Shown: in pieces, positions 7,060 through 7,984 of the stretch
Position numbering within the stretch: the first letter of the stretch is position 1
How the letters are laid out: each line of letters opens with the position of its first letter
From: the human T2T-CHM13v2.0 reference genome, Homo sapiens
Assembly (NCBI RefSeq): GCF_009914755.1
Contig: NC_060931.1
Strand: one strand, 5' to 3'
Length of the DNA stretch: 64,000 nt
The notes under the pieces: model-generated
Told to the model about the DNA's origin: nothing
What the model saw: the letters and a program-made list of their open reading frames with translations, nothing else
Database searches by the model: none
Translations under genes and position numbers: made by a program

Positions 7060-7298
7060 ACAGCCTAAGCAACATAGTGAGATGCCCCTGTCTCTAAAAA
7101 AATTTAAAAAGCCAGGCAGGGTGGTGTGCACCTGTAGTCCCAGCTACTCAGAAGGCTGAGATAGTAGGATCTCTTGAGCCTAGGAGTTGGAGGCTGCAGT
7201 GAGCTGTGATCACACCACTGCACTCCAGCCTAGGTAAGAGAGCCAGTCTAGGCACTCAGTCTAGGTGACAGAGCCAGACTCCTTCTCTTAAAAAAAAG
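7060..7298 (+). mobile_element. 5'-truncated AluJ-like element with internal duplication near its 3' end
   Basis: CAGCCTAAGCAACATAGTGAGA...CACTCCAGCCTAGGTAAGAGAGCCAGTCTAGGCACTCAGTCTAGGTGACAGAGCCAG. Confidence 0.85.
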
Positions 7299-7984
7299 AA
7301 TGTGGTAGCAGAACAATGACTTCCAAAGACGCCTATGTCCTAATGCCTCGAACCTGTGAGTGTTACCTTCAGTGGAAAAGAGGCTTCACAGATGTGATTA
7401 GCTCTGGATTGTACATATGGGCCCAGTGTGAACATAAGGGTCCTTCAGTGGTGGAAGAGGGAGGCAGAAAGTCTGAGTCAGATGGAGATGCAAAGCTGCT
7501 GTACCACTGACTTTGAAGTTGGAGGGAGGGGAATCGAGCAGTCTCTTTTTGCTAAAGGCCTCTACCTCCCTCCATTTTGACCTTGGTCCTCCCTCTCTCC
7601 TTCAAGAGAAAGCGGTACAGCAGCTTCACATCTCCATCTGACTCAGACTTTCTGCCTCCCTTTTCCATCATTGAAGGACCCTGATGTTCACACTGGGCCC
7701 ATCTGTACAATCGAAAGCTAATCACATTCGTGAAGCCTCTTTTCCACTGAAGGTAACACTTACAGGTTCAAGGCATTAGGACATGGGCATCTTTGGAAGT
7801 CATTGTTCTGCTACCACATTCTTTTTTTTAAGAGAAGGAGTCTGGCTCTGTCACCTAGACTGAGTGCCTAGACTGGCTCTCTTACCTAGGCTGGAGTGCA
7901 GTGGTGTGATCACAGCTCACTGCAGCCTCCAACTCCTAGGCTCAAGAGATCCTACTATCTCAGCCTTCTGAGTAGCTGGGACTA
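7135..7984. repeat. Long inverted repeat (quasi-palindrome): ~375 bp arms, ~100 bp spacer
   Basis: 7135-7329 is the exact reverse complement of 7790-7984; 7330-7509 pairs with 7610-7789 at ~91% with no indels (manual alignment). Confidence 0.97.
7301..7530 (+). mobile_element. MLT1D/E-like MaLR LTR 5' part (inverted copy at ~7590-7818)
   Basis: TGTGGTAGCAGAACAATGACTTCCAAAGACGCCTATGTCCTAATGCC...GAACCTGTGAGTGTTACCTT...CAGATGTGATTAG. Confidence 0.75.

What the first reader, a model, noticed from the sequence alone, without database searches (positions are those of the whole stretch)
7135..7984. ~850 bp quasi-palindrome with a 195 bp perfect outer stem and an older inner stem
Seen: 7135-7329 is base-for-base the reverse complement of 7790-7984, including a private internal duplication and the A8 run. 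The inner arms (7330-7509 vs 7610-7789) continue on the same axis without indels at ~91% identity, around a ~100 bp spacer. The arms are a chimera of an Alu right arm and an MLT1-type LTR, and the right-hand Alu piece stops abruptly at 7984 with no left arm. Known: independent MLT1 insertions are far more diverged than this, and close perfect inverted repeats are unstable and rare in primate genomes. Inference: there were two time strata. An older fold-back duplication was later extended or homogenised by a very recent hairpin-primed template switch or arm-to-arm conversion. The locus may be a cruciform/fragile site, a polymorphic micro-inversion, or, if transcribed, a ~375 bp dsRNA stem (ADAR/MDA5/Dicer substrate).
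Basis: partly seen in the sequence, partly recalled or inferred. Interest (0 to 1): 0.8.

Follow-up and report, generated by a model that had tools for sequence, protein, structure and literature searches.

The report
Two-aged Alu–LTR inverted duplication
An 850-base stretch of human chromosome 7 can fold back on itself because a piece of old repeat DNA was copied in reverse at two very different times; it is a clean example of a known copying error, with no sign of a function.

Summary
7135-7329 is the exact reverse complement of 7790-7984 (0 of 195 mismatches). 7330-7509 versus 7610-7789 lies on the same axis without indels and has 17 of 180 mismatches (13 transitions, 4 transversions). The step in identity is not chance (Fisher p = 2.5e-6).

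The arms are an old, 5'-truncated Alu joined to the 5' part of a dispersed LTR family. The Alu carries a 9-nt target-site duplication made of the LTR's first bases, so the left arm sits at the original site. No other place in the T2T-CHM13 assembly matches either arm above 83% for more than about 60 nt. Both inner arms carry derived changes, so their 9.4% divergence reflects real age, roughly tens of millions of years. The Alu is older than that split.

Best reading: an old fold-back inverted duplication whose right arm was later extended, or overwritten, by copying the left arm. Extension and arm-to-arm conversion cannot be separated without outgroup genomes. Zero differences only bound the young event to under about 4-15 My.

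The loop is 35-100 nt and the centre is degenerate. No transcript is annotated over it and it matches no Rfam family. I rate it a neutral relic of a known mechanism, of modest interest.

The parts
7053..7061 (+). 5' copy of the Alu target-site duplication (TGTGGTAAC). It equals the first 9 nt of the LTR.
   Evidence: One search prints both copies. It matches 8 of 9 positions with 7301-7309. Family copies begin their alignments at 7301-7302.
7062..7300 (+). 5'-truncated old Alu: end of the left monomer, A-rich linker, right monomer, A8 tail at 7290-7297, then GAA. It is the source copy.
   Evidence: similar to 28 other Alu copies in the window. Non-CpG divergence is 30 of 159 = 18.9%, rank 26 of 29. 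There are 0 CpG in 7135-7329. The subfamily name (AluJ-like) is recalled, not tested.
7220..7277 (+). Internal tandem duplication of about 32 nt private to this Alu (7220-7246 ~ 7252-7277). It is also present in the right arm.
   Evidence: Local alignment (score 18; 23 of 27 columns identical, 1 gap). Not reported by TRF.
7135..7329 (+). Outer left arm, young stratum: Alu 3' part, tail and the first 29 nt of the LTR.
   Evidence: 0 of 195 mismatches to the reverse complement of 7790-7984.
7301..7532 (+). 5' portion of a dispersed LTR-type repeat (MaLR/MLT1-like by recall) at its original integration site.
   Evidence: at least 40 other genomic copies at 63-83% identity. Their alignments start at 7301-7302 and end at 7531-7532.
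7330..7509 (+). Inner left arm, old stratum.
   Evidence: 17 of 180 mismatches and no indels against 7610-7789; 13 transitions and 4 transversions.
7510..7609 (.). Degenerate centre and loop. Arm homology with indels reaches about 7530 and 7591. A 10-nt exact inverted match lies at 7520-7529 / 7565-7574, and a second CCTCCCTC motif lies at 7588-7595.
   Evidence: Whether the spacer continues the LTR on one strand was not resolved.
7610..7789 (-). Inner right arm, old stratum: an inverted copy of the LTR part.
   Evidence: It carries at least 9 derived substitutions relative to the family.
7790..7984 (-). Outer right arm, young stratum: an exact inverted copy of 7135-7329 that ends inside the Alu right monomer.
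7985..7992 (.). Outer junction. 6 of 8 positions still pair with 7127-7134 (TGCAnCTn), which is either candidate microhomology or a remnant of older homology. 7985-8100 is single-copy in the genome.
   Evidence: 336 of 20000 random pairs reach this score; self match only.

Best explanation
This is a non-functional structural relic built in four steps.

1. An ancient LTR sat at 7301 onwards.
2. A 5'-truncated Alu then inserted into the LTR's first 9 nt, producing the target-site duplication.
3. Tens of millions of years ago, a fold-back or template-switch event copied the LTR's 5' part in reverse next to itself. This left a short loop and removed the LTR's 3' part.
4. Much later, a break or stalled fork occurred at the outer end of the right arm. 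The 3' end paired with the left arm through the old 91% stem and was extended outward along the left arm for 195 nt (7329 down to 7135). It then rejoined the right flank at 7985 at a patch of microhomology.

The result is a perfect outer stem added to an old, diverged inner stem. In other words, an inverted-repeat arm was expanded by template switching.

Steps 1 and 2 and the relative ages are shown by sequence. Steps 3 and 4 are inferred.
For: - The identity step is sharp: 0 of 195 versus 17 of 180 mismatches (p = 2.5e-6).
- The inner differences look like ordinary neutral divergence on both arms. They comprise 13 transitions and 4 transversions. Nine are derived on the right arm, 5 on the left and 3 are unclear, judged against 45 other family copies.
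- The left arm is the source. The Alu runs on to 7062 and has its own target-site duplication at 7053-7061 / 7301-7309, which is also the LTR's 5' end. An Alu match spans 7120-7188 without a break (pair I9).
- The Alu is older than the inner split. Its non-CpG divergence is 18.9%, against about 5% per arm for the inner stems.
- The locus is unique in the genome.
- The outer junction shows marginal microhomology (p about 0.017).
- Extension needs no coincidence: the inner end of the perfect tract is simply the old arm's end, and the outer end is where copying stopped.
- The mechanism is known. Template switching homogenises and expands inverted-repeat arms (PMC13100816 passages; PMC8604942 abstract). 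Human template-switch events of up to 318 bp are reported (PMC9435742 passages). Fold-back priming with a spacer and 2-8 bp of inverted microhomology is documented (PMC3907307 passages).
Against: - No outgroup genome or second human haplotype could be examined, so the ancestral state of 7790-7984 is unknown.
- Arm-to-arm conversion of pre-existing full-length arms gives exactly the same sequence.
- 195 nt is long for a template-switch copy. In PMC9435742 the longest event in complex sequence among the closely studied variant-database cases was 90 bp.
- The 6 of 8 match outside the perfect stem could equally be an unconverted remnant of older homology, which would favour conversion.
- The young tract's inner end could lie up to about 30 nt further left (P = 0.05).
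- Which arm carries the original spacer could not be settled.
Confidence: 0.5

Rival explanations
1. [quoted passage not shown] Both arms diverged to about 91%. One later conversion or mismatch-repair tract then overwrote the outer 195 nt of one arm with the other.
For: - It produces the same final sequence.
- The Alu predates the inner split, so it could have been part of the first copy.
- The 6 of 8 match just outside the perfect stem fits an unconverted outermost remnant. Two mismatches in 8 positions is compatible with 9.4% divergence.
- Arm-to-arm conversion is well documented for large sex-chromosome palindromes (abstracts of PMC3723533, PMC8981503 and PMC8327919 in the listing).
Against: - It requires the tract's outer end to fall within about 8 nt of the end of homology.
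- Recombination between arms only 91% identical, with perfect runs of about 30 nt, is inefficient (recalled knowledge).
- There is no sign of conversion anywhere in the inner 180 nt, so conversion is not ongoing.
Confidence: 0.35
2. Assembly or sequencing artefact: the perfect 7790-7984 copy is not in the real CHM13 genome.
For: Perfect identity of a close inverted copy is the kind of thing fold-back chimeric reads can produce (recalled). No read-level data could be examined here.
Against: - The perfect part is not next to the symmetry centre. It sits outside a 180-nt stem with 17 ordinary substitutions and a degenerate loop, which a chimeric read cannot create.
- The junction at 7984/7985 leads into single-copy sequence.
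- Both arms lie 460 nt apart, well within single long reads (inference).
Confidence: 0.02
3. A selected functional hairpin: the structure is kept because its transcript forms a long dsRNA (an ADAR, Dicer or MDA5 substrate or a small-RNA precursor), or because the DNA cruciform has a role.
For: If transcribed, the RNA would fold into a stem of about 380 bp (MFE -785.7 kcal/mol, z = -67).
Against: - RefSeq annotates no transcript over 7135-7984; the nearest lncRNA exon is at 33938 (hub table).
- The region matches no Rfam family.
- The inner stem has drifted to 91% with non-compensated changes on both arms.
- The content is repeat debris, and the locus lies in a gene-poor region.
Confidence: 0.03
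4. One single event. The whole right arm was copied at once, and the inner 180 nt differ because synthesis just after the switch was error-prone or the single-stranded DNA was damaged (kataegis-like).
For: - Derived changes are somewhat more frequent on the right arm (9 versus 5).
- 6 of the 9 right-arm changes hit G in LTR orientation.
- The stretch nearest the centre is the most scrambled.
Against: - At least 4-5 changes are derived on the left (source) arm.
- The spectrum is mixed and transition-rich with CpG decay on both arms.
- A 9% error rate over 180 nt followed by 0 errors in 195 nt is not known for any polymerase (recalled).
- The 9:5 asymmetry is not significant.
Confidence: 0.03

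Closest known systems
Template-switch mutations and inverted-repeat arm expansion or homogenisation (Loytynoja and Goldman model; yeast IR-expansion studies)
   Same: An inverted, exact copy of adjacent sequence that lengthens a pre-existing imperfect inverted repeat, with switch points close together. Human events of up to 318 bp are reported (PMC9435742). Arm expansion and homogenisation are described in yeast (PMC13100816; PMC8604942 abstract).
   Different: Typical events are 10-50 bp; this one is 195 bp. The anchoring stem is about 200 nt at 91% rather than a few perfect bases. The ancestral state was not observed here.
Fold-back inverted duplications with a spacer (Hermetz et al. 2014, PMC3907307)
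   Same: Inverted and non-inverted copies are separated by a single-copy spacer, short inverted homology lies at the spacer edge, and adjacent sequence is lost (here the LTR's 3' part).
   Different: Those cases are megabase duplications with 0.8-70 kb spacers on broken chromosome ends. This one is a 0.4-kb interstitial copy with a 35-100 nt loop.
Snap-back or fold-back templated insertions at double-strand breaks (SD-MMEJ, Pol theta-type repair)
   Same: The 3' end folds back on nearby complementary sequence, is extended, and then joins the other end at microhomology (abstracts of PMC5728401 and PMC11724301 in the listing).
   Different: Reported inverted insertions are mostly about 5-34 bp (PMC11724301 abstract). 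The enzyme involved here cannot be inferred.
Large sex-chromosome palindromes kept above 99% identical by arm-to-arm conversion
   Same: Inverted arms around a spacer, with part of the arms identical beyond what their age predicts (abstracts).
   Different: Those have arms of 10 kb to Mb that are homogenised along their whole length and carry genes. Here only the outer half is identical, the inner half has drifted to 91%, and there are no genes.
Closely spaced inverted Alu pairs (Lobachev et al. 2000, as described in PMC10164571)
   Same: Part of each arm is Alu sequence in inverted orientation, which gives hairpin or cruciform potential.
   Different: This is not two independent Alu insertions. 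The right piece is a truncated exact copy of the left, including a private duplication and LTR sequence. The spacer and central mismatches place it outside the highly unstable range described for yeast. The 2000 paper itself was not available.

Membership tests
Template-switch inverted-repeat arm expansion | The new sequence is an exact reverse-complement copy of sequence adjacent to the other arm, contiguous with a pre-existing inverted repeat. | tested here: met
   0 of 195 mismatches, on the same axis as the 91% inner stem.
Template-switch inverted-repeat arm expansion | The ancestral allele lacks the copy (outgroup or other haplotype). | not testable with these tools
   Only the T2T-CHM13 assembly is held. 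No other primate or human haplotype is available.
Template-switch inverted-repeat arm expansion | The return switch occurs at microhomology. | tested here: inconclusive
   6 of 8 positions match beyond the stem; 336 of 20000 random pairs do as well.
Palindrome maintained by arm-to-arm gene conversion | Arms are homogenised along their length, with identity well above that expected from their age. | tested here: not met
   The inner 180 nt are only 90.6% identical, with derived changes on both arms. Only the outer 195 nt are identical.
Palindrome maintained by arm-to-arm gene conversion | An orthologous palindrome in other species shows concerted evolution. | not testable with these tools
   No outgroup genomes are held.
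Fold-back inverted duplication | A single-copy spacer lies between the direct and inverted copies. | tested here: met
   A loop of 35-100 nt at 7510-7609.
Fold-back inverted duplication | Short inverted homology at the spacer / inverted-copy junction. | tested here: inconclusive
   A 10-nt exact inverted match lies at 7520-7529 / 7565-7574. The motif is low-complexity and the centre has since been scrambled.
Independent inverted Alu pair | Two separate insertions, each with its own tail, target-site duplication and divergence. | tested here: not met
   The right piece is truncated at 7984, is identical to the left including the private duplication, and has no target-site duplication of its own.
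DNA transposon or MITE with long terminal inverted repeats | Multiple genomic copies share the same inverted termini. | tested here: not met
   No other genomic place matches the arms beyond ordinary LTR-family similarity. The arms are an Alu-LTR chimera.
Highly fragile (cruciform-extruding) palindrome | A very short spacer and perfect pairing at the centre of symmetry. | tested here: not met
   The loop is >=35 nt and the centre is degenerate. The criteria come from yeast work: Mre11 attack is limited to loops under 9 nt (PMC8053094), and widening the spacer from 12 to 100 bp lowers recombination 300-fold (PMC10164571). Fragility in human cells was not tested.

The most novel reading that the evidence does not exclude
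The outer 195-bp stem is a hominine- or human-lineage hairpin-primed extension of a palindrome tens of millions of years old. That would make it one of the longest germline template-switch arm expansions in complex, non-tandem sequence, possibly still polymorphic. It would be a natural snapshot of how inverted repeats grow stepwise from an old imperfect stem.
Probability: 0.4. Interest if true: 0.45.

Novelty: new member of a known kind. Interest (0 to 1): 0.3.

Why it matters
The locus is a clean natural example of an old, diverged inverted repeat serving as the anchor for a much later copying event that made its stem longer and perfect. If ape and human pangenome alignments show that the outer stem is lineage-specific, the event would sit at the long end of the known size range for template-switch mutations. 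It would also show that 91%-identical stems of about 200 nt can still prime such events in the germline. It has no evident consequence for any gene. Its practical value is as a test case for structural-variant callers and for non-B-DNA catalogues.

Tried and rejected
1. Does the spacer continue the LTR on the minus strand, which would make the right arm the original? A MAFFT view suggested it. Pairwise scoring against 27 well-anchored family copies out of 32 tried gave S_minus 9.1 versus null 8.5 and S_plus 7.9 versus null 7.7. That test has no power, so the question is unresolved. The Alu target-site duplication instead points to the left arm as the original.

2. Are the flanks outside the structure inverted copies of each other, forming an even older stratum? 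The reverse complement of 6880-7061 against 7985-8166 gave a local score of 15, against a null of 11.1 +/- 2.05, and 33 of 500 shuffles reached it. This is not supported.

3. An early count of '9 of 11' matches beyond the stem was my own miscount, because it included 3 stem bases. The correct figure is 6 of 8.

4. I looked for outgroup copies of the LTR inside the window and found none. Copies from the rest of the genome were used instead.

5. Tandem Repeats Finder found nothing in 7050-8050.

6. An Rfam scan of 6800-8300 found nothing.

8. Lobachev et al. 2000 is not held. One literature query was rejected for an over-long term and was not repeated.

9. No genome-wide census of similar two-aged inverted repeats was attempted, because the genome can only be drawn in 10-kb pieces.

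Full report
**Observation.** The window holds one outstanding inverted repeat. Its arms are 7127-7508 and 7611-7992, 382 nt long and 95% complementary, with 102 nt between them. On the axis i+j=15119, 7135-7329 pairs with 7790-7984 without a single mismatch (195 nt). 7330-7509 pairs with 7610-7789 with 17 mismatches and no indel, which is 90.6%. The contrast is not chance: Fisher p = 2.5e-6, and the probability of 0 of 195 at the inner rate is 4e-9. As single-stranded DNA the region folds at -469.9 kcal/mol, against -130.6 +/- 7.8 for shuffles. As RNA it folds at -785.7 kcal/mol. Among 27 inverted pairs of >=60 nt within 1.5 kb of each other in the whole 64-kb window, this is the longest and the only one above 88%.

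**What the arms are made of.** The outer part resembles the other Alu elements of the window (pairs I9, I11, I15, I17, I19, 28 other copies covering >=170 nt, after dropping shorter HSPs and those inside 7000-8000). The left Alu does not stop at 7135. It runs on to 7062, and an Alu match spans 7120-7188 without a break (I9). It ends in A8 (7290-7297) and contains a private tandem duplication of about 32 nt (7220-7246 ~ 7252-7277). TRF did not report that duplication.

From 7301 the sequence belongs to a dispersed family. A search of the window's own genome (T2T-CHM13) found 42 and 41 matches for the two arms. Apart from the two arms matching each other at 91%, long matches are 63-83% identical, and anything above 83% covers at most 62 nt. 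Most family alignments begin at 7301-7302, with the typical TG start of an LTR. I call it MaLR/MLT1-like from memory; no tool named it.

The 9 nt just before the Alu (TGTGGTAAC, 7053-7061) repeat the 9 nt just after its tail (TGTGGTAGC, 7301-7309). This is the Alu's target-site duplication, and it consists of the LTR's first bases. So the Alu inserted into the very start of an LTR that was already there, and the left arm is the original arrangement. The perfect/91% boundary (7329/7330) lies 29 nt inside the LTR, not at the Alu-LTR joint. Even so, the young tract's inner end could lie up to about 30 nt further left (P = 0.05).

**Are the inner differences real age?** The 17 differences are 13 transitions and 4 transversions. 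I polarised them against 45 other family copies. Nine are derived on the right arm, five on the left (three of these at CpG-type sites, where the family majority is unreliable), and three are unclear. Both arms therefore carry changes, the spectrum is mixed, and CpG decay is seen on both. This is ordinary neutral divergence, not a burst of copying errors on one arm.

The Jukes-Cantor distance is 0.101. With recalled primate substitution rates of 1-2.2e-9 per site per year, that is roughly 23-50 My. The Alu is older. Its non-CpG divergence from the majority of the 28 other Alus is 30 of 159 (18.9%), rank 26 of 29, and it has no CpG left in 7135-7329. This compares with about 5% per arm for the inner stems. 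So the Alu was already beside the LTR when the first inverted copy was made. Zero differences in 195 bp bounds the second event only to under 3.5-15 My at 95%, depending on the rate used. 'Very recent' is therefore possible but not shown.

**Centre and edges.** Inward of 7509 the arms stay alignable only with indels, to about 7530/7591. A 10-nt exact inverted match (TGGAGGGAGG, 7520-7529 / 7565-7574) lies inside the nominal spacer, and a second copy of the motif lies at 7588-7595. The loop is therefore 35-100 nt depending on the alignment, and the centre is scrambled. Family homology ends at 7531-7532 on the left and at 7577-7590 on the right. The LTR's 3' part is absent.

I could not show that the spacer continues the LTR on either strand. 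At the outer edge, 6 of the 8 positions beyond the perfect stem still pair (7127-7134 / 7985-7992), a score reached by 336 of 20000 random pairs. The right flank 7985-8100 is single-copy in the genome. It is not a detectable inverted copy of the left flank (33 of 500 shuffles).

**Mechanism.** Two events are needed.

The first was an inverted duplication of the LTR's 5' part with a short loop and loss of the 3' part. That is the anatomy of fold-back or template-switch repair. Passages of PMC3907307 describe a spacer in all 21 sequenced junctions and 2-8 bp of inverted microhomology in 13 of them.

The second made the outer 195 nt identical. I favour extension (0.5). In this model a 3' end at the outer edge of the old right arm paired with the left arm through the old stem, copied 7329 down to 7135, and rejoined the flank at 7985 at microhomology. 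This needs no coincidence of boundaries, and it matches the described expansion and homogenisation of inverted-repeat arms by template switching (PMC13100816 passages; PMC8604942 abstract). The size is within the reported human range: the longest reported event is 318 bp, although the longest in complex sequence among the variant-database cases was 90 bp (PMC9435742 passages).

The main rival (0.35) is a single conversion tract in arms that already included the Alu part. It gives the same sequence, and the 6 of 8 outer match might be its unconverted remnant. It requires the tract to end within about 8 nt of the end of homology. Ongoing conversion of the sex-chromosome palindrome type (abstracts) is excluded by the drifted inner stem.

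An assembly artefact is very unlikely (0.02), because the perfect part lies outside an ordinary diverged stem and joins unique sequence.

**Consequences.** Nothing indicates function. RefSeq annotates no transcript here (hub table), the region matches no Rfam family, and pairing in the inner stem has decayed without compensation. In yeast, widening the spacer from 12 to 100 bp lowers repeat-induced recombination about 300-fold, and even one mismatch near the centre lowers it (PMC10164571 passages). Mre11-complex attack is limited to loops under 9 nt (PMC8053094 abstract passage). By those criteria the long, degenerate centre would make this locus fairly stable in duplex DNA, which may be why it persists. 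In long single-stranded DNA such repeats can still interact (same paper). Fragility, spacer inversion and dsRNA formation remain untested ideas.

**Verdict.** This is a new member of a known kind. The deciding data are ape and monkey orthologues and human pangenome haplotypes, which these tools do not hold.

Noticed in passing
G000 subtelomeric places listed (e.g. C20:46955-47060, C19:130620-130725, C11:135991-136096, C7:47775-47880, C1:134812-134917, C16:96277332-96277437, C9:150570052-150570157): About 14 matches to the LTR's first 105 nt have the same score (60.8 bits, 75%) and lie within about 50-150 kb of contig ends. One copy of this LTR family evidently sits in a block duplicated among subtelomeres.
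   Followed up: no
window 7565-7600: The centre-proximal end of the right arm holds two copies of a CCTCCCTC motif 23 nt apart (7565-7574 and 7588-7595). Both are complementary to 7520-7529. This could be a stutter of the original fold-back priming or a later small duplication.
   Followed up: partly
window 7610-7789: Of the 9 substitutions polarised as derived on the right arm, 6 hit G in LTR orientation, and 4 of those are followed by A. The numbers are too small to call a strand-coordinated signature.
   Followed up: partly
window 12543-12705 / 14049-14211: The second-best inverted pair of the window: 163 nt, 88% complementary, 1343 nt apart. It is probably an ordinary inverted Alu pair.
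   Followed up: no
window 6900-7052: The left flank of the LTR looks like an old MIR-type SINE in reverse orientation. This is recalled resemblance only, and no tool named it.
   Followed up: no
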